Shown here piece after piece: positions 2-7,895 of a stretch of 64,000 nt of DNA. Source of the stretch: Promethearchaeota archaeon (GTDB lineage: Archaea; Asgardarchaeota; Lokiarchaeia; Sigyniarchaeales; SOKP01); the NCBI GenBank assembly GCA_019058295.1, contig JAHPZI010000030.1, positions 1 to 64,000 on the forward strand, in the 5' to 3' direction. Both the position numbers and the translations under genes were made by a program. Below the pieces are notes generated by a model. The model was given only the letters and a program-made list of their open reading frames with translations, was not told the DNA's origin and ran no database searches. The stretch's first letter is position 1, and each line of letters starts with the position of its first letter.

Positions 2-1957
2 GTGGAGGAATTATACAGAGAGCAAGAGACAACGGAACAAGATAGAGAAAATGAATTAATACAAGAATTAATGGTAGAATCAGAACAGGAAACAGTTGAG
101 AAAGTAGAACAAGAAATTGTTCAAGATGAAGAGCAGGAAATTGAAATAATACAAGAAGAAGAACAAGATTTCGAGAGACAGGAAACTGAATATAAAATTG
201 AAAAAGAGATGGAACAACAAGAAGTAGATAAAGAGCTAGATGAATCAGAGGAAGAGGGACAATCTCTCAGAGAAAAATACCGTCAAGAAACAGGGAGAAG
301 ACCTATTTATGGAGGGGAACCAACTAAGGGTTATAAAAAATGGTTAGAAATTAAAAATCAAGAGGAAGGTAGAAGTGAAAAAAAAGCTGAAGAAACCTCG
401 AAAAAATCAATGAAGAAATTAGAACCGTGGGAAAAATTATTAATAAATTGGATTAATAAATCAGAAGAAATATCCAATGAAGATAAACAGGAACTAATTA
501 GAATAATTACCCAATATCAACAATTAAGAAGAGATTACAAAAAATTACATCAGTTAATTCAAAAATATTTAAGAAATGCTATTACAAAAGAAGAAACCGA
601 AGAACTATTAGCTTTAGCGAAAAAATTTAACAAAGTTGGCATTGTACAAAAGGAACTTTTTAAAAATCTTCAAGCTTTCAGAAATTTTTATTATAAAAAT
701 ACTGGATATCGAATCTTTGTTGAAAGAGAGAAATTCACGAGGCATTTAGCTAATAAATTAAAAAAAATAAAAGCTCAAAGTTCATCTCAACAAGAAAATT
801 GGAGGCAGTTAATAAAGAAAAGGGGAATAATTTATAAATTAACTAATTTAATAAATAAAAAAGTATATATAGGGAAAACCGTCAGAACATTAAAGGTAAG
901 ATGGAATGAACATTTACAACATTTAAGAAATGGAGATCAAAGGCATTTATATCGTGGTATGAGACTTTATGGAAGTGAAAATTTTAAAAAGGAGATTATT
1001 GAAGTATGGAAAAATATAAAAAACTTAAAAAAGAAATTAATAGAAAGAGAAATTTATTGGATTGCTTATTACAATTCAAGGGACCGAGATTTCGGTTACA
1101 ATTTAACAGAGGGTGGAGATGGTGCTGGTTGGGGAAAAGATAATCCAATATATAAAGAAGTAGATAAGGATTTGCTCAAAAGACTAATAAAAAAAGGCTT
1201 TAAAGCAGAAGAAATTGCAGAAAAACTTAATATTCGTCGAAAAACAGTAAATAAGCGAATACAGCAATTTTGGGGTATAACTCTAAATGAAGCAAGGAAA
1301 CGTTTTATGAATAAAAATGAAATGGCAAAATATATTTTAAAACTAAAAATCGAAAATCCGAGTTATAAAGAGATAGATGGGAATTTACTTAAAAAATTTA
1401 TTATCAAAGGATTGACTTCAAAACAAATCGCTTCAAAACTCGGAATAAATTATACAACAGTATTTGAAAAAACTAAAGAATTATGGGGATTAAGCTTGGT
1501 TGAAGCAAGAAGAGCTTTTATAAAACCAATTTTAAAATCATTAATAAAACAGAATTCGACTGATGTTCAAATAGCTAAAACGCTTGGCATATCAATTTCT
1601 ACTCTATATAGATTAATTAATAAATTCTGGGGTATGACATTGATTGAAGCAAGAAGAGATTTTATTACATCAGATTTAGAATTGTTAATTATGCAACATA
1701 AGACAGCAGACGAAATAGCTAAAGAACTTAATATCTCATCCCCTACTGTTCACTTATGGGTAAAAAAAATATGGGGTAGAACTTTATCACAGACTTGGAA
1801 ATTATTAATAAAACCTAAATTAAAATCTTTAATTAAACAAAACCTAACTGCTGAACAAATTGCTGAATTATTACATATTGATCAATCTTCGGTTTATAAT
1901 TTGACCAAAGAATTTTGGAATGTAAGGTTTTCAGAAGCGAGGGATTATTTAAAATAA
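2..1957 (+). CDS. GIY-YIG nuclease-domain protein with acidic N-terminus and five C-terminal HTH-like repeats (probably 5'-truncated by the window edge)
   Basis: GIIYKLTNLINKKVYIGKT..RWNEH..EREIYWI..GYNLTEGGDG; five ~49-aa repeats of the form L..LI..G.T..EIA..L.I...TV......WG..L.EAR. Confidence 0.8.
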   Translation: MEELYREQETTEQDRENELIQELMVESEQETVEKVEQEIVQDEEQEIEIIQEEEQDFERQETEYKIEKEMEQQEVDKELDESEEEGQSLREKYRQETGRRPIYGGEPTKGYKKWLEIKNQEEGRSEKKAEETSKKSMKKLEPWEKLLINWINKSEEISNEDKQELIRIITQYQQLRRDYKKLHQLIQKYLRNAITKEETEELLALAKKFNKVGIVQKELFKNLQAFRNFYYKNTGYRIFVEREKFTRHLANKLKKIKAQSSSQQENWRQLIKKRGIIYKLTNLINKKVYIGKTVRTLKVRWNEHLQHLRNGDQRHLYRGMRLYGSENFKKEIIEVWKNIKNLKKKLIEREIYWIAYYNSRDRDFGYNLTEGGDGAGWGKDNPIYKEVDKDLLKRLIKKGFKAEEIAEKLNIRRKTVNKRIQQFWGITLNEARKRFMNKNEMAKYILKLKIENPSYKEIDGNLLKKFIIKGLTSKQIASKLGINYTTVFEKTKELWGLSLVEARRAFIKPILKSLIKQNSTDVQIAKTLGISISTLYRLINKFWGMTLIEARRDFITSDLELLIMQHKTADEIAKELNISSPTVHLWVKKIWGRTLSQTWKLLIKPKLKSLIKQNLTAEQIAELLHIDQSSVYNLTKEFWNVRFSEARDYLK

Positions 1958-2050: not shown

Positions 2051-3018
2051 ATGTTAAATAAAAAGCAGTTTAATGAGTTATTTGAAAAGCGCTTAATAAA
2101 GGAGAGTTATGAAGAAGAAATAAATATTATTTTAACTGGCCAATATGGAAAAGCTCTGGAATTGCTACGTGATGCAGAAGCAACACAACTATTCCCTGCT
2201 TTAGTAGGTCCACCAGGTGTTGGAAAAACTATTCTCTGTAGATATTTTGCTAGCCTTAGAGCGAAAGAGGATAAAAATAAGAGTTTTCACTGGATTACTT
2301 TTGATGAATCGATTAAACCTTCCCATCTAATCGGAATTTTCCTCGCATAAGCGATGGAACCGAAAGTTTTGATCCCGCTATTACTTTAAAACAAGGATTC
2401 ACTTTAGAAGCATTTCATCCTGGACCTTTACTCAGTGCTATGTTAGAAGGCGGTACATTTTTGGCAAATGAAATTAACAGAGCGACGGAATACTCACAAA
2501 ATACACTATTAGAACCTTTAGAAGAAGCTTCTATTGCTATTCCTCATTTAGGTCGAATTAAAGCAGATAATGATTTCTTTTTTATATGTGCTATGAATCC
2601 AGAAGAACTTTCTGGAACTCATCGTTTATCTGAAGCTTTAAAAGATAGAATAAAAGTATGGATAAAGTTAGATTATCCTCAAAAGGCAACGGAGTTAGAC
2701 ATTATTAGAATTAATTTACCCGAGCATTTTATAATTGAGGAATCTGAATTAGAATTAATCTATTCCATTATTGAGGCAACTCGAAAAAATAAAATTGATA
2801 TTGAAATTCCCGCTTCAATAAGAGCAGGAATTGCTATGGCTAAGTTATTAGGTCACCAAAGAGCATTAGAAAAAGAAAAAAAAATTAGTGAAAAAGACTC
2901 ATATTCTTACTTGTCCGATATCGCAAAGCATGTATTATTAGGTAGTCTTAAACCTAAACCAGGTATGAAAGTTGAAGATATTGTTGAAGGTATTATTGCT
3001 AGAACTTTAGGAGGGTAA
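2051..3018 (+). CDS. MoxR-family AAA+ ATPase, spliced: join(2051..2336,2366..3018), 312 aa
   Basis: Walker A GPPGVGKT in ORF 2051-2350 and Walker B region FLANEINRA in ORF 2440-3018; removing 2337-2365 gives continuous SHLIG-SFDPAITLKQGFTLEAFHPGPLLSAMLEGG. Confidence 0.85.
2337..2365 (+). other. Putative 29-nt BHB-type mRNA intron in MoxR ATPase gene
   Basis: Central helix TCGG(2331-34)/CCGA(2360-63); inner stem TTCC-TCGC-ataa-GCGA-t-GGAA; 3' bulge AAG; 5' bulge is 4 nt (AATT, relaxed); cuts after 2nd bulge nt restore frame. Confidence 0.8.
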
Positions 3019-3027
3019 AAAGGATTC

Positions 3028-5523
3028 ATGGGTATTTTTCCTGAAAATCCATGTGAATTTGCTGTCGAATTTATACGTAGGATGAGATATCATCCCGATA
3101 TAGTCCAGATGCCTTCCTCGAGACAAGTATTATCTATTCCAAAATTAATTTTAGCGCGATACTATCGCAAAGGCTCAGTCAATCCAAATGATTTTATTGA
3201 AATTAGCACTATGACTTCCTTTCCTGATAATCAAAAACTTGCTAAAAATCTTGCTTTTGAAATCCTTTTCCCAAACTATAAAAAAGATTTGATGCCATCC
3301 TTTTTTAATGATAAAGAATTTCTTGATCAGATTAATCAAGAGGATTTCATGAATCAAGAAGTAAAATCTGAACTAGATCAACTTCAAGATCTAATTGATG
3401 ATATAGAATTGACTAAATCAATAGATACAGATTTAATTGAGCAAATGGAACAATTTCTTGAAGAATTGAACCAAAATAGAGATAAACAACCTTATGAATC
3501 TGCTTTACAGTTTTTCAATGATGATTCTGAATTATATAAAGAAGAAATAACCTCTTTTGAAGAGTTAATTGAAGAAGCGAAAAAAAGAATGATGGAGAAA
3601 ATTAATTCACTCTCGCCGGAGGATCTTAAAGCGGGAGCAGAATTGGATTTGAATGACTTAATTCAGCAGGCATCCAAACGAGATTGGGAAAAGATTACGA
3701 GTAAAGCGCTTAATGACCAAGACATTACAAAAGATATTAATGATTTATTTAAATCTGGTAACTTTGAAGATCTTATTAAATCATTGAAGTTCTTGAATGA
3801 AACGGATGCCATTCCTAAAGATCAAATTCAAAATATGAAAGATGCTCTTGAAAATCAAATACAAAATCTTGACCAACTGTTTCAGGCCGCAAAAAATTTA
3901 GGTGATACTCCTAAATTCGATCAAAATAATGTGTTGGACAATTCTTTACAACAATCTTCTTTTGAACATAATTTTAATCTAGCCAATTCATTGGATCAAT
4001 ATTTCGGTACTAATTTAAGAGCTCAATTGCTTGATAAGTTTAATCAACAATTCAGTGGTTCTAATATGAACCTTTCACTTGAAACTCTCACAAAAAATGC
4101 ATTTACAAACAAATCATGGAATGACCTTTTAAATCAAGCACTTGAAAATGCGATTCAAGATGCATTGAAACAGAAGAAGAAATTCGAAGGATTTAAATCT
4201 TTATCTCATCAATTACAACAACTTGCAAATTCTTGTGAAAATATGCATTGTAGTCAAAAAATGGAACAGCATCTGCCAGAAATAATTAAAAAAGCTCTTG
4301 AATCAAGTGAGAATCCTAACGAATTAAAAAATGTTGTTGAATTTCTTAGAAGTATTGGTTTAAATCCAGAATCAGAAGACATAAAACGAGTTGGAAAAAA
4401 ACTTGAAATGCCTGATGACGAAATCTTTGAATTAATAGAACCAAATTACCAACTTCTAAAGAAGCTAATTGATAAAAATATTGGAGACTTCGAAAGAATA
4501 AACAATTTAATGAATCAAATAAAGGATCAAATTAATAAAGATCGAATGAAAGAGCTTTTATCAAGTGCTTTAGCATCTGAAAATAGAGATGCATTAGGAG
4601 CTCTTGGGCATTTTAATTTAGAAGAAGCTTTAAAAGGAGCTGGACAAATTGGTGGGGAAGAGGGACAAGATATGCTAATTCAAAGCCTTAGTGCTGGGAC
4701 CGGAGAAAACTTACTGAAACAGTGGTTTATACACCGTCAGAATTTACATGCTGATGCGAAACAAAAAGTAAAGGAATTAGCAAAAAAAATGCTTATTGAA
4801 CTGGGAATCTTTTATTCTCGAGCACGTTTAGGTAGTTCGGTGTCGGGACCAATTCCTATTAATATCGTAAGACCATTTACTATAGGTGATGATTTCGAAA
4901 ATGTAGATTTAGAAGAAACTATTAATAACATTATGGAAAAGGGAAAAAAGCTCGATCATATCAATTACGATGATTTTTTTGTTTTCGAAACTGCAAAAGG
5001 TTTAAGAAGCGCTTGTTTTGAACTCGATATTAGCGGGTCAATGTCCGGAGAAAAATTAGCTTATATGGCAATCTGTGTGACAATGTTGGTTTATGGAATG
5101 AGGAAAGATGAACTTGGTATTACTTTCTTTGAATCAGACACGCACATTCTAAAAGAATTAGATCAAAAAATAGATTTAGAAAAATTGGCAGATGAATTGC
5201 TTACGATTAACGCACGAGGTGGAACAATGGTTCAAAAAGCACTTGAATGGGCTAGGCGTCAATTTAAAGAAAAATCTGCCACTCGTGAAAAGCTGAATGT
5301 TCTCTTTACAGACGCTGAGATTTTCGATCTTCAGCAATCGCTTAATGAATTAAGAATTTTTCGTAGTATGGGGATCGATTTTATTTTAGTTGTGCCAGAA
5401 AATTCATTCAACCTTAAAGATGCAAAAAAAATCGTAAAAATTGCTGGCGGACAGCTACTAACAATAAAAGATTGGAATGAATTTCCCCAATTAATATCAG
5501 ATATAATTAAATCGAAATTTTAA
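3028..5523 (+). CDS. VWA (MIDAS) domain protein, MoxR partner
   Basis: C-terminal ELDISGSMSG (DxSxS), GGT, LFTDAE; directly downstream of MoxR. Confidence 0.85.
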   Translation: MGIFPENPCEFAVEFIRRMRYHPDIVQMPSSRQVLSIPKLILARYYRKGSVNPNDFIEISTMTSFPDNQKLAKNLAFEILFPNYKKDLMPSFFNDKEFLDQINQEDFMNQEVKSELDQLQDLIDDIELTKSIDTDLIEQMEQFLEELNQNRDKQPYESALQFFNDDSELYKEEITSFEELIEEAKKRMMEKINSLSPEDLKAGAELDLNDLIQQASKRDWEKITSKALNDQDITKDINDLFKSGNFEDLIKSLKFLNETDAIPKDQIQNMKDALENQIQNLDQLFQAAKNLGDTPKFDQNNVLDNSLQQSSFEHNFNLANSLDQYFGTNLRAQLLDKFNQQFSGSNMNLSLETLTKNAFTNKSWNDLLNQALENAIQDALKQKKKFEGFKSLSHQLQQLANSCENMHCSQKMEQHLPEIIKKALESSENPNELKNVVEFLRSIGLNPESEDIKRVGKKLEMPDDEIFELIEPNYQLLKKLIDKNIGDFERINNLMNQIKDQINKDRMKELLSSALASENRDALGALGHFNLEEALKGAGQIGGEEGQDMLIQSLSAGTGENLLKQWFIHRQNLHADAKQKVKELAKKMLIELGIFYSRARLGSSVSGPIPINIVRPFTIGDDFENVDLEETINNIMEKGKKLDHINYDDFFVFETAKGLRSACFELDISGSMSGEKLAYMAICVTMLVYGMRKDELGITFFESDTHILKELDQKIDLEKLADELLTINARGGTMVQKALEWARRQFKEKSATREKLNVLFTDAEIFDLQQSLNELRIFRSMGIDFILVVPENSFNLKDAKKIVKIAGGQLLTIKDWNEFPQLISDIIKSKF

Positions 5524-5531
5524 AGTGCAGA

Positions 5532-7895
5532 ATGATTAAGGAATCCTTACCAGAACTTATAATAGGAGAATTCGGTGAAAAATTATACCAAAAATCACTG
5601 ATTTTTCCTAATAATAAAATAAATATAATTTACATCAGAGAAGATCCAATAAAAATTAATTCAATAATTTTGGATAATGATCGTGAATTCCATCTAATTA
5701 TTGACGAAGAGAAAGCAGAAATTTTTCATGACTGTCCGAGTTTTTTAATACATTCACTAAAAGAAAAAAAAATATGCGTCCATTTAATTAAAGCGTTATT
5801 AATGATAAAAAGAAACCTTGCTTTAAAAATTTTAAATAATTTTAATAATTATAAGTTAACTTCTGAAGATTTTGGTTCAAAAAAAAAAAGTAAAAATTAT
5901 ATATTGCTCTCAAACACCTGTTTTGAAAGAGATAATTGTGTTGAGGGTTTAAGCTATCTAAACAAGGCCATAATTAATCAAAGTGAATGCGAAAGTATCA
6001 TTGAAAATTATTTAAAAAAGTCCATTGATAATAACCTATATGTTGAATTCTTTGAATTTTTAAAAACATGTATTGAAAATGAATTAATTGATCCTCTTTT
6101 ACAATTCAATCATTACATTATTGAGGGCTTTAAAAATTTATTAAATTCCACAGCCAATTATTCTTTCATTTATATACTCTTTATCATCGAATCCTTAAAT
6201 GTTATTTTTAACTTTATTGATCTCTCATTTTCTAAAGATTTATTTAATAAATTTGAAAAAATGGTTTATAGCTCCAGTCTAAATGAAAAATATTTTTCAA
6301 TTTATTTTATTATGAAGAATTTTGACAAATTAATAGATATAAATCCATTATTTAAAGCTTTAATTGAAAAAAATCATTTAGAATCTTTAAAAAACGAAAT
6401 TTTAGAATATTTTTTTGGTGAAATTGAAAATCTTGCTGTAATAGATAAATTAAAATTAATGAAAAGGCAATTTAAAGTAATAGGAATTTCAAAAAATAGA
6501 TTTTATAATGAATATAGGAGCTATAAAAATGAAATAAAGGAATTAGAAAAGAAAGTTTATTTAAAAAAATTCTCTTTTCTGAAACTCTTAATGGAAAAAT
6601 ATAATATAATTAGTTCTAAAGGAGAATTCAGAAAAAAAAGGAATACTTATATAATTCAACACGATCCAGTAAATTTAAAAAATCCAGTCTATCAATACAT
6701 TATAAGGCGCCTTGGATTTTTTGGTTTGAATGATCAAATAATTAAATCCAATGATATTGGAATAAATTATTTTATTATTAGAGAGCTTTTCTTAGATAAT
6801 TTAACCAATCATCCTGATATATTTTACTATAAAAAACAATTTTGGGGAGATAATGAAAATGATTTAGAAATAAACTCTATCGAAGGATTTTCTTTATTCA
6901 GTGAAATTATTCATTATAATTATGATATTGATCAACAATATTCCAATATTAACGATGTAATTATAATTGAATGGGATTTAGCAAATAAACCGAGACAAGG
7001 AAGCATTGTGAATGCCTATGGATCTCAAATAATTATTCCTGATCAAAATAATCCATTGTTTCACGATTTGAAACCTTTTGATCTTTGTTATTGTCTTAAA
7101 ACTCCAGTAAAAATTGAAGGAAATATAATAAAAACAATTAATGTTATATCAAAATGCTCGTTTAAAGACGCAATTAATAGTGTTTCTAAAGGAATGAGTT
7201 TTATTGAGGGATTTTATCCATTATCTCTCGTTAAAACTGTATTGGACAAAGAAATTAGTCCATTTAAAGCTAATGAAATTGCGGTAAATAATCCTAATAA
7301 AATCTTTATCCCTAAATATAATCAGTTTATTAAGAACTTTAGAGAGTTTCTTTTTGATTTTATTAATAGAGAAAGAGATTATATTTTTGAAGAAGTAAAA
7401 TCTGATCCAGAGAAAAAAGCAAATCAGATAATTATCTTATTAAATTTAACAAATGAACTTTCCGGATTGAATTTACCATATTCTACAATTTTAAAGAAGT
7501 TATTAAATCAAAATGTAAATTTACAAGAATTTAAATTAAAATTTTTAAAGGAAATACACATTATTATAAAAGAAATTTTAGAAAAAAGAAATGTTGGTAA
7601 TACGATAGTTTTTGATTTAAAAAAAATGCGAAATACACCATTTTCTAAATATTCGAACGAAATTCTCAATATCAGAAAACAAGAATTCGAATCTGGAAAA
7701 GTTTATAAATTTCAAGACAAAGCAGAGATATGGTATGATGTCTCAGAAATTAAAAACACATTTTATGGAAAAAAATTCTTTAATATTTTGAATATAGACA
7801 AGGAAATATCAATAAAACCAGATAAATTTATAAAGTTCTCTGAGTTTGCTTCAAAACTAAGATTGAAAATAACTTTAAGAATTACAAATAATTAA
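5532..7895 (+). CDS. SWIM zinc-finger-containing protein
   Basis: HDCPSF...ICVHLIKAL near N-terminus; co-oriented with MoxR-VWA. Confidence 0.6.
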   Translation: MIKESLPELIIGEFGEKLYQKSLIFPNNKINIIYIREDPIKINSIILDNDREFHLIIDEEKAEIFHDCPSFLIHSLKEKKICVHLIKALLMIKRNLALKILNNFNNYKLTSEDFGSKKKSKNYILLSNTCFERDNCVEGLSYLNKAIINQSECESIIENYLKKSIDNNLYVEFFEFLKTCIENELIDPLLQFNHYIIEGFKNLLNSTANYSFIYILFIIESLNVIFNFIDLSFSKDLFNKFEKMVYSSSLNEKYFSIYFIMKNFDKLIDINPLFKALIEKNHLESLKNEILEYFFGEIENLAVIDKLKLMKRQFKVIGISKNRFYNEYRSYKNEIKELEKKVYLKKFSFLKLLMEKYNIISSKGEFRKKRNTYIIQHDPVNLKNPVYQYIIRRLGFFGLNDQIIKSNDIGINYFIIRELFLDNLTNHPDIFYYKKQFWGDNENDLEINSIEGFSLFSEIIHYNYDIDQQYSNINDVIIIEWDLANKPRQGSIVNAYGSQIIIPDQNNPLFHDLKPFDLCYCLKTPVKIEGNIIKTINVISKCSFKDAINSVSKGMSFIEGFYPLSLVKTVLDKEISPFKANEIAVNNPNKIFIPKYNQFIKNFREFLFDFINRERDYIFEEVKSDPEKKANQIIILLNLTNELSGLNLPYSTILKKLLNQNVNLQEFKLKFLKEIHIIIKEILEKRNVGNTIVFDLKKMRNTPFSKYSNEILNIRKQEFESGKVYKFQDKAEIWYDVSEIKNTFYGKKFFNILNIDKEISIKPDKFIKFSEFASKLRLKITLRITNN

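What the first reader, a model, noticed from the sequence alone, without database searches (positions are those of the whole stretch)
2325..2373. MoxR ATPase 'frameshift' is a 29-nt BHB-like intron
ORFs 2051-2350 and 2440-3018 are two halves of one AAA+ domain. The insert TTTTCCTCGCATAAGCGATGGAACCGAAA forms a stable hairpin on a perfect UCGG/CCGA central helix. Cuts at GGAA^U and GAAA^G give ATC GGA AGT TTT GAT CCC = I-G-S-F-D-P, the expected LIG.FDP motif with no extra residue. The motif is relaxed (4-nt 5' bulge, weak outer helix), so a broad-specificity endonuclease would be needed. The downstream VWA and SWIM genes are intact, so the operon does not look decayed.
Basis: partly seen in the sequence, partly recalled or inferred. 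Interest (0 to 1): 0.85.

Follow-up and report, generated by a model that had tools for sequence, protein, structure and literature searches.

The report
tRNA-type mini-intron splitting Asgard MoxR gene
The apparent frameshift in this Lokiarchaeon's MoxR ATPase gene is a 29-base intron of the kind normally cut out of tRNAs, which in print is known inside an archaeal coding sequence only for cbf5, and here it seems to have arrived by recombination next to a homing-endonuclease gene.

Summary
Window 2337-2365 is a 29-nt insert in a MoxR AAA+ gene. About 120 orthologs of 312-313 aa read H-[FL]-x-G-S-F-D-P with no extra residue, and an ortholog's DNA lacks exactly these 29 nt.

It is not an assembly error or a dead gene. 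The same-length insert sits at the same site in six distinct lineages. Excision leaves every ORF intact (dN/dS 0.05-0.11). The inner stem shows four pairs with compensatory double changes. The 4-bp helix UCGG/CCGA and both bulges are kept.

The geometry is that of a bulge-helix-bulge intron. Cuts after the second bulge base give the ortholog sequence. The outer exon-exon helix is weak, so this is the relaxed HBh' type.

The genome has EndA alpha and beta paralogs, and alpha keeps the K-P-R loop linked to broad specificity. RtcB was found in 5/5 congeners but not in this 79%-complete assembly.

Canonical BHB introns also split uL11 and Sec61beta in this genome.

New here: intron carriers are scattered on the gene tree. 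The window's 5' gene part is a recombination tract from an L072-like donor. An I-TevI-like GIY-YIG gene lies directly upstream.

The scan has noted similar mini-introns in other Asgard genes, but not this one. No RNA data were available.

The parts
2051..2336 (+). MoxR exon 1 (Walker A GPPGVGKT; ends ...H-L-I-G plus the first base of the Ser codon)
   Evidence: AAA_5 profile positions 4-45
2337..2365 (+). 29-nt BHB-type (HBh') intron. It carries a TAA in the exon-1 frame (2348-2350).
   Evidence: Exact 29-nt gap against ortholog DNA. Same site and length in six lineages (alignment A3).
2366..3018 (+). MoxR exon 2 (GT of the Ser codon, then FDPAITLK... to the stop)
   Evidence: 96% identical to full-length orthologs
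2331..2334 (+). H, 5' strand (UCGG, exon) of the 4-bp central helix; pairs with 2360-2363
   Evidence: 4/4 Watson-Crick pairs, invariant in all six versions
2360..2363 (+). H, 3' strand (CCGA, intron)
2335..2337 (+). 5' bulge AA^U (predicted cut after 2336)
   Evidence: Geometry. The rule of cutting between bulge bases 2 and 3 is from PMC2738675.
2338..2359 (+). h' inner stem-loop (U2338-A2359 ... C2346-G2351, loop AUAA, one C.U mismatch)
   Evidence: 94% of cells paired; 4 of 9 pairs have compensatory double changes
2364..2366 (+). 3' bulge AA^G (predicted cut after 2365)
2325..2330 (+). Weak, interrupted outer helix h, 5' strand (A2330-U2367; then 2325-2327 with 2371-2373)
   Evidence: pairable in 6/6 versions, but no double changes and the sequence is constrained by coding
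2051..2411 (+). Recombination tract. This 5' part of the gene, with the intron, is 84-98% like L072 but only 64-80% like the otherwise 96-100% identical sister G007. The 5' limit is not seen.
2..1957 (+). I-TevI-like GIY-YIG endonuclease gene with about 6 HTH repeats, cut at its 5' end by the contig end. Candidate free-standing homing endonuclease.
   Evidence: homolog upstream of intron-bearing MoxR in L028 and a remnant in L072
3028..5523 (+). VWA-domain partner gene of the MoxR operon, intact
5532..7895 (+).

Best explanation
Window 2337-2365 is a bulge-helix-bulge (relaxed HBh'-type) intron in the pre-mRNA of a MoxR AAA+ ATPase. The transcript folds so that exon bases UCGG pair with intron bases CCGA. 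This helix is flanked on the 5' strand by the bulge AA^U followed by an 8-9 bp intron hairpin. It is flanked on the 3' strand by AA^G followed by a weak exon-exon helix. The heterotetrameric splicing endonuclease EndA (alpha-beta)2 cuts after the second base of each bulge. An RtcB-type ligase then joins GGA-A to GU-UUU. The product is a 312-aa protein reading ...HLIG-SFDP.... Shown: the exact 29-nt insert, its structure and covariation, purifying selection on the exons, and the presence of the endonuclease. Inferred: the cleavage and ligation themselves. At the DNA level the intron probably entered this lineage by homologous recombination with an intron-bearing allele, possibly driven by the adjacent GIY-YIG endonuclease.
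For: (1) Orthologs of 312-313 aa have no residue at the insert, and ortholog DNA lacks exactly 29 nt.
(2) A second assembly, 97% identical over 6.8 kb, carries the identical insert.
(3) Six distinct lineages carry a 29-nt insert at the same site (window/L001, L072, L008=L073, L014, L028, L068=L074). Three of them were found by BLAST among relatives, independently of any pattern.
(4) After excision all give intact ORFs. dN/dS is 0.05-0.11 with saturated dS.
(5) Structure counts on A3: 92-97% of cells pair against 26-47% when the partners are slid. Four h' pairs show double compensatory changes. H is invariant.
(6) The canonical geometry with cuts between bulge bases 2 and 3 reproduces the ortholog junction. 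This rule is as used for cbf5 (PMC2738675).
(7) Random 29-mers at this site reach that geometry in 4-7 per 10,000 trials.
(8) There are two EndA paralogs. The alpha subunit is most similar to Aeropyrum EndA alpha and keeps K44/R46 of the loop that confers broad specificity. PMC5829648 reports (alpha-beta)2 EndA with this loop in Asgard.
(9) Precedent in the same genome: uL11 and Sec61beta are split by canonical hBHBh' introns. The uL11 intron is conserved in two congeners, with exon-intron covariation in H (G-C to A-U).
Against: No RNA evidence is available. The outer helix h is only one conserved A-U pair plus an interrupted 3-bp helix, so the 3' splice site is not in a closed bulge. The unconstrained MFE is a different fold. 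RtcB was not found in this assembly, which is 79% complete, though it is present in 5/5 congeners. H invariance in L068, L072, L073 and L074 follows partly from the search pattern used to find them. A blind genome-wide BHB scan gave as many hits with a decoy geometry, so the structure alone would not single this site out. Only three substitutions separate the window from L001, so selection since acquisition in this species cannot be measured.
Confidence: 0.85

Rival explanations
1. Translational recoding. The ribosome passes the conserved hairpin by a hop from GGA (2333-2335) to a downstream landing codon, or by a -1 frameshift near GGA-AUU-UUC. No RNA is removed.
For: A stable hairpin follows a Gly codon, and a stop lies soon after it in the window. 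GGA recurs at 2356-2358, in the frame of exon 2. The insert is conserved across lineages, as a recoding signal would be.
Against: The hop to GGA 2356 would add T-E, and a -1 shift would add 10 residues, inside a loop where about 120 orthologs have none. The second GGA is not conserved: it reads GAA or AGA in four of six versions. An exact 29-nt bypass would need GGA to land on GAA. [quoted passage not shown] There is no canonical slippery heptamer.
Confidence: 0.06
2. A disabling 29-bp insertion. The MoxR gene is a recent pseudogene and the hairpin is incidental, or a remnant of a DNA-level mobile element.
For: The nearest congeners (G007, G005, 93% identical CDS) lack the insert. Within-species data are too few to show selection after the insertion. 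The unspliced reading stops after 99 aa.
Against: Six diverged lineages keep the same 29-nt length, intact exons, dN/dS of 0.05-0.11 and compensatory stem changes. The downstream VWA partner gene is intact. Essential genes of this genome (uL11, Sec61beta) carry inserts of the same architecture. There is no second copy of the 29-mer in the genome.
Confidence: 0.04
3. The insert is spliced, but its main role is to protect the allele from the neighbouring GIY-YIG endonuclease by interrupting that enzyme's DNA target. It is then a selfish partner, and the MoxR product is incidental. This changes the reason the intron persists, not the RNA mechanism.
For: An I-TevI-like gene lies 93 nt upstream of MoxR. 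It or a remnant of it is present in 3 of 5 intron-bearing loci with upstream sequence, and in 0 of 25 intron-less loci. There is a mosaic tract around the intron. Carriers are scattered on the gene tree.
Against: Two carriers (L073, L068) have no such gene within 2-4 kb. The endonuclease's target is unknown. The gene tree is poorly resolved (12 of 29 branches open), and intron loss could also scatter the carriers.
Confidence: 0.35

Closest known systems
cbf5 pre-mRNA intron of Crenarchaeota (Aeropyrum, Sulfolobales, Desulfurococcales; Watanabe 2002, Yoshinari 2006, Yokobori 2009 = PMC2738675)
   Same: Both are short introns inside a coding sequence. Both have a relaxed or unconventional BHB, predicted cuts between bulge bases 2 and 3, dependence on a hetero-oligomeric EndA, and a patchy distribution that implies gain and loss.
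   Different: This one is in a different gene (MoxR AAA+ ATPase) and a different phylum (Asgard, Lokiarchaeia). It is only 29 nt long. Here the acquisition can be seen as a recombination tract, with a GIY-YIG endonuclease gene alongside. Splicing has been shown by cDNA for cbf5 but not here.
Non-canonical tRNA introns with HBh' motifs in Thermoproteales and Asgard (Marck and Grosjean 2003; PMC4090602; bioRxiv 10.64898/2026.10.13.758758)
   Same: Same motif architecture (H, bulge, h'), the same enzyme type ((alpha-beta)2 with the specific loop), similar lengths, and repeated gains.
   Different: The host RNA here is an mRNA. The exon half of the motif is made of codons (Ile-Gly-Ser) rather than tRNA structure.
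Collaborative homing of a free-standing endonuclease and an endonuclease-less intron (cyanophage psbA with F-CphI; T-even phage seg and mob genes).
   Same: A GIY-YIG/HTH endonuclease gene lies beside, not inside, an intron-bearing gene. Flanking exon sequence was co-converted. Carriers are patchy.
   Different: Those introns are self-splicing group I introns of phages. Here the intron is protein-spliced (BHB) in a cellular archaeal genome, and no cleavage activity or target has been shown.
Programmed translational bypass (T4 gene 60; mitochondrial byp elements of Magnusiomyces).
   Same: A short structured insert in a coding sequence that is absent from orthologs, with a stop codon near the take-off point.
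   Different: There are no conserved matching take-off and landing codons, and the conserved features are those of a BHB.

Membership tests
BHB (endonuclease-spliced) archaeal intron | 4-bp central helix H between exon and intron bases | tested here: met
   UCGG 2331-2334 pairs with CCGA 2360-2363, 4/4 Watson-Crick and invariant in six versions. In four of the versions the invariance follows partly from the search pattern.
BHB (endonuclease-spliced) archaeal intron | Two 3-nt bulges on opposite strands, each 3' of its H strand | tested here: inconclusive
   The 5' bulge AA^U is closed on both sides by H and h' (met). The 3' AA^G is followed by only one conserved A-U pair and an interrupted helix. 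The motif is therefore HBh' rather than strict hBHBh'.
BHB (endonuclease-spliced) archaeal intron | Flanking helices h' (intron) and h (exon-exon) | tested here: inconclusive
   h' is met: 8-9 bp, 94% of cells paired, 4 pairs with double changes. h is weak and shows no covariation.
BHB (endonuclease-spliced) archaeal intron | Cuts between bulge bases 2 and 3 give the correct mature sequence | tested here: met
   Cuts after 2336 and 2365 give ATC-GGA-AGT-TTT-GAT = IGSFD, as in orthologs. The rule is from PMC2738675.
BHB (endonuclease-spliced) archaeal intron | A splicing endonuclease able to read relaxed motifs is encoded | tested here: met
   Two PF01974 paralogs, on C1 and C26. The alpha subunit has Y/H/K and the K-P-R of the crenarchaeal specific loop. 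The beta-like paralog lacks the His.
BHB (endonuclease-spliced) archaeal intron | RtcB-type ligase encoded | tested here: inconclusive
   Not found in this assembly, which is 79% complete. Found in 5/5 congeners.
BHB (endonuclease-spliced) archaeal intron | Spliced RNA, or a circular or linear excised intron, observed | not testable with these tools
   No transcriptome data are reachable.
MoxR AAA+ ATPase with VWA partner | AAA_3/AAA_5 domain with Walker A/B, and an adjacent VWA-domain gene | tested here: met
   Pfam AAA_5 positions 4-45 in exon 1 and AAA_3/AAA_5 positions 53-138 in exon 2; VWA_2 in the next gene. Sources name the orthologs MoxR family ATPase.
Free-standing GIY-YIG homing endonuclease (I-TevI-like) | GIY-YIG catalytic domain plus a C-terminal DNA-binding module | tested here: met
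   Pfam GIY-YIG at residues 275-359 and HTH repeats at 390-640. PHROG homing endonuclease, E 2.5e-24. I-TevI catalytic domain 1LN0, E 6e-7.
Free-standing GIY-YIG homing endonuclease (I-TevI-like) | Cleaves the allele that lacks it and is copied in together with flanking markers | not testable with these tools
   Indirect evidence only: the mosaic tract and co-occurrence in 3/5 carriers against 0/25 non-carriers.

The most novel reading that the evidence does not exclude
The MoxR mini-intron is a mobile BHB intron that spreads at the DNA level together with a free-standing I-TevI-like GIY-YIG endonuclease. The enzyme would cut intron-less MoxR alleles near the insertion site. Repair from an intron-bearing donor would copy in the endonuclease gene, the intron and about 50-75 nt of downstream exon, and the intron would then shield the new allele. 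This would be collaborative homing, so far described for group I introns of phages, applied to protein-spliced introns in the closest prokaryotic relatives of eukaryotes. It would also give a mechanism for the repeated gain of BHB introns in Asgard genes.
Probability: 0.35. Interest if true: 0.92.

Novelty: new member of a known kind. Interest (0 to 1): 0.8.

Why it matters
In the literature I could search, endonuclease-spliced introns inside archaeal coding sequences are documented only for cbf5 of Crenarchaeota. This case adds an ordinary, non-essential operon gene in Asgard archaea, backed by comparative evidence from six lineages with compensatory changes. The same genome also has canonical introns in uL11 and Sec61beta.

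The practical consequence is that gene callers will mis-annotate such genes as frameshifted or split. Two public assemblies call a 192-aa fragment here.

Conceptually, the splicing machinery shared with eukaryotic tRNA and HAC1/XBP1 splicing would be routinely needed to make mRNAs translatable in the archaeal lineage nearest to eukaryotes. The mosaic tract and the neighbouring homing-endonuclease gene also make the long-open question of how BHB introns are gained directly testable.

Tried and rejected
1. Blind genome-wide scans for canonical BHB geometry plus ORF joining. Total hits equalled those of a mirror-geometry decoy (1718 vs 1750; 160 vs 195; 366 vs 375). Only the two top hits (uL11, Sec61beta) were clearly real. 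The scan cannot be used to count introns, and MoxR (h 2, h' 4) lies within its noise.

2. Search for other copies of the 29-mer in the genome, allowing up to 5 mismatches: none found. The insert is not a multicopy element.

3. The simple reading that the insert is species-specific (judged from match lengths) was wrong. Closer inspection found carriers G023, G030 and G015.

4. uS11 and iorB inserts reported by earlier notes. uS11 does carry a 30-nt stop-containing insert, but the correct product needs a 5' cut after the third bulge base. iorB gave no canonical solution in the range I scanned. I did not use either as support.

5. RtcB in the own genome: not found.

6. Within-species dN/dS (window vs L001): only 3 substitutions, so no power.

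7. Literature searches for Asgard mRNA BHB introns found only tRNA-intron papers.

8. The search of earlier findings by sequence: no earlier look-alike of this locus.

9. No structure prediction or complex prediction was run. None was needed.

Full report
WHAT IS THERE

The window is the first 64 kb of a 205-kb contig of a 3.2-Mb, 30% G+C assembly that is 79% complete. Sources name the orthologs of the gene in question as Promethearchaeota/Lokiarchaeota, that is, Asgard archaea.

ORF 2051-2350 carries the Walker A motif GPPGVGKT and matches AAA_5 profile positions 4-45. The reading frame that is open from 2338 to 3018 matches AAA_3/AAA_5 positions 53-138. The two pieces are therefore halves of one MoxR-type AAA+ domain. 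An intact VWA-domain gene follows.

THE INSERT IS EXACTLY 29 NT

A database search with the second half returned 472 relatives. The best ~120 are nearly all 312-313 aa and up to 96% identical. Aligned with both halves, they read ...DESIKPSH[FL]xG-SFDPAITLK..., with no residue between the Gly that ends the first half and the Ser-Phe-Asp-Pro of the second.

At the DNA level the ortholog L002 lacks exactly 29 nt. Because of flanking A's, the same product results if both cuts are moved one or two bases to the left.

A simple -1 frameshift would add 10 residues. A hop from GGA 2333 to GGA 2356 would add two, T-E. No ortholog has either.

IT IS NOT AN ARTEFACT AND NOT A DEAD GENE

A second public assembly (L001, GCA_019058335.1) is 97% identical over 6.8 kb and carries the identical insert.

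Among 30 species representatives of the family that have the gene, three others (G023, G030, G015) have a 29-nt insert at the same site. A pattern scan of metagenome and genome collections added L072 and L068=L074, and re-found G023 as L073. This makes six distinct versions in all (alignment A3).

After the 29 nt are removed, every version gives an intact reading frame to the natural C-terminus. Pairwise dN/dS between carriers is 0.05-0.11, with dS at or beyond saturation.

Window and L001 differ at only three positions in this gene. Selection since the insert arrived in this species therefore cannot be measured.

STRUCTURE

With c5 = 2336 and c3 = 2365, the RNA fits the architecture of an archaeal bulge-helix-bulge motif:
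- Central helix H is UCGG (2331-2334, exon) paired with CCGA (2360-2363, intron).
- The 5' bulge is AA^U.
- Inner helix h' runs from U2338-A2359 to C2346-G2351, with loop AUAA and one C.U mismatch.
- The 3' bulge is AA^G.
- The outer helix h is only A2330-U2367 and A2329-U2368.

The 3-nt register is the one shared by all six versions.

Counted on A3, 92% of cells pair, against 26-47% when the 3' partners are slid. Four of the nine h' pairs show changes on both sides (for example C-G/U-A and U-A/A-U/G-C). H never varies.

One caveat applies. Four of the versions were found with a pattern that fixed UCGGAA and CCGAAAG, so their H invariance is partly by construction. The three found by BLAST are free of that bias.

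Given the ortholog-defined boundaries, shuffled inserts or random genomic 29-mers reach the observed geometry in 0.04-0.07% of trials.

A blind scan of the whole genome for this geometry gave no excess over a decoy geometry. The structure is significant only because the boundaries are known independently.

MACHINERY

The genome encodes two EndA paralogs. One has the catalytic Tyr/His/Lys and is most similar to the alpha subunit of the Aeropyrum pernix heterotetramer (3P1Z_B, E 4e-36). It aligns K-P-R with K44-P45-R46 of the Crenarchaea-specific loop. That loop, and K44 within it, confers cleavage of non-canonical motifs (PMC3241643). The other paralog lacks the His. This fits the published statement that Asgard archaea have (alpha-beta)2 EndA with this loop (PMC5829648).

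RtcB was not found in this incomplete assembly. It is present in all five congeners searched.

PRECEDENT IN THE SAME GENOME

Prompted by unchecked first-stage notes, I examined two further cases.

uL11 (C30:126695-126724, minus strand) is interrupted by 30 nt carrying an in-frame TAA, inside GPPIGP-VVGPTGIN. The insert has a strict hBHBh' motif: h of 7 contiguous pairs, H GGUU/AGUC, bulges GU^A and AA^A, and h' of 6 pairs. The same intron is present in congeners G007 and G004 and absent from G001, G018, G019 and others, which read GPPIGPAVGPTGIN uninterrupted. In G004 a synonymous exon change (CCG to CCA) is matched by C to U in the intron, so that G-C becomes A-U in H.

Sec61beta (window 56079-56110, minus strand) has a 32-nt canonical intron whose removal gives GGAGL-MRFFED.

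These genes cannot plausibly be pseudogenes, so this organism must remove such inserts from mRNA.

The uS11 insert is real but off-register, and iorB was not confirmed. I do not lean on either.

HOW THE INTRON GOT HERE

On a maximum-likelihood tree of 32 spliced genes, the six carriers are scattered. Well-supported branches force at least three changes.

The window's gene is sister (100/99 support) to the intron-less G007/G005 genes. Even so, its intron is 27/29 identical to that of L072, whose exons are only 80% identical overall.

A sliding comparison explains this. From the start of the compared region to about 45-75 nt past the intron, the window is 84-98% identical to L072 and 64-80% identical to G007. 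Beyond that point it is 96-100% identical to G007. The intron therefore arrived within a recombination tract from an L072-like donor.

Upstream of about 2112 there is no similarity to G007 at all. That space is occupied by ORF 2-1957, which has these features:
- an I-TevI-like GIY-YIG domain (PDB 1LN0, E 6e-7);
- a match to PHROG homing endonuclease (E 2.5e-24);
- about six HTH repeats.

A 56%-identical homolog lies in the same place and orientation in carrier L028 (G015). An HTH-only remnant lies there in L072. None is found upstream of the gene in 25 intron-less loci, nor in carriers L073 and L068.

This pattern is what homing by a free-standing endonuclease with co-conversion would leave. 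However, the enzyme's target is unknown, two carriers lack the gene, and the tree is poorly resolved. I give this reading about one chance in three.

COMPARISON WITH WHAT IS KNOWN

The closest described case is the cbf5 pre-mRNA intron of Crenarchaeota. It is also a relaxed BHB, cut between bulge bases 2 and 3 by a hetero-oligomeric EndA, with a patchy distribution (PMC2738675).

Full-text searches found papers on Asgard tRNA introns but none on Asgard mRNA introns.

Within this scan, earlier reports describe similar mini-introns in other Asgard genes (fbp, kae1, rpoA2, infB, aEF-2, gatA), two of them next to homing-endonuclease genes. None concerns this locus.

I therefore class the finding as a new member of a known kind. 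The mobility reading would make it a new variant.

VERDICT

- Spliced BHB-type intron: 0.85.
- Translational recoding: 0.06.
- Disabling insertion: 0.04.

The missing piece is RNA evidence.

Noticed in passing
window 55935-56185 (-), intron 56079-56110: An unannotated-looking Sec61beta gene is split by a canonical 32-nt hBHBh' intron (h 9 bp, H GGUC/GAUU, bulges UA^A and AA^A, h' 6 bp). Excision gives PLGGAGL-MRFFEDSS.
   Followed up: partly
G000:C30:126695-126724 (-), = L035/L038; relatives L039, L040, L045-L048: The uL11 gene carries a 30-nt canonical BHB intron with an in-frame TAA. It is conserved in congeners G007 and G004 with exon-intron covariation in H, and absent in G001, G018 and G019. 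G022 (L048) has a different insert five codons downstream, after GPTGIN.
   Followed up: partly
G000:C1 about 158860-158890 (-), L036: The uS11 gene has a 30-nt stop-containing insert inside SSPYAA-MQCGFR. The correct product needs the 5' cut after the third bulge base, so it is off-register. Its first 22 nt resemble the uL11 intron.
   Followed up: partly
G002:C3:15844-17180 and G006:C13:33313-34649: In two congeners the RtcB ligase matches Pfam in two pieces (profile positions 1-47 and 47-426) separated by about 26 nt. This may be a mini-intron in the gene of the splicing ligase itself.
   Followed up: no
G000:C22:30303-33335: A tight array holds 27 intron-less tRNA genes covering most amino acids, whereas the dispersed tRNA genes of the genome mostly carry introns. 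It may be a mobile or viral tRNA array.
   Followed up: no
window 58832-58936 (+): ARAGORN finds an intron-containing tRNA-Ser(UGA) only when run with intron search. The default tool call reported no tRNA in the window.
   Followed up: no
L072:5513-6670 (-): In the L072 lineage a second GIY-YIG/HTH endonuclease-like ORF (30% identical to the window's) lies just after the VWA gene, where the window has the 787-aa gene.
   Followed up: no
window 2214-5520 vs L001: Between the two 97%-identical assemblies, MoxR differs at 3 of 805 positions but the adjacent VWA gene at 68 of 2493. This is consistent with a recent sweep or transfer of the MoxR 5' region.
   Followed up: partly
window 1 (contig end) and L001 position 1: Both assemblies break in or next to this locus. 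The window's contig starts inside the GIY-YIG gene, and L001's contig starts inside MoxR exon 1.
   Followed up: no
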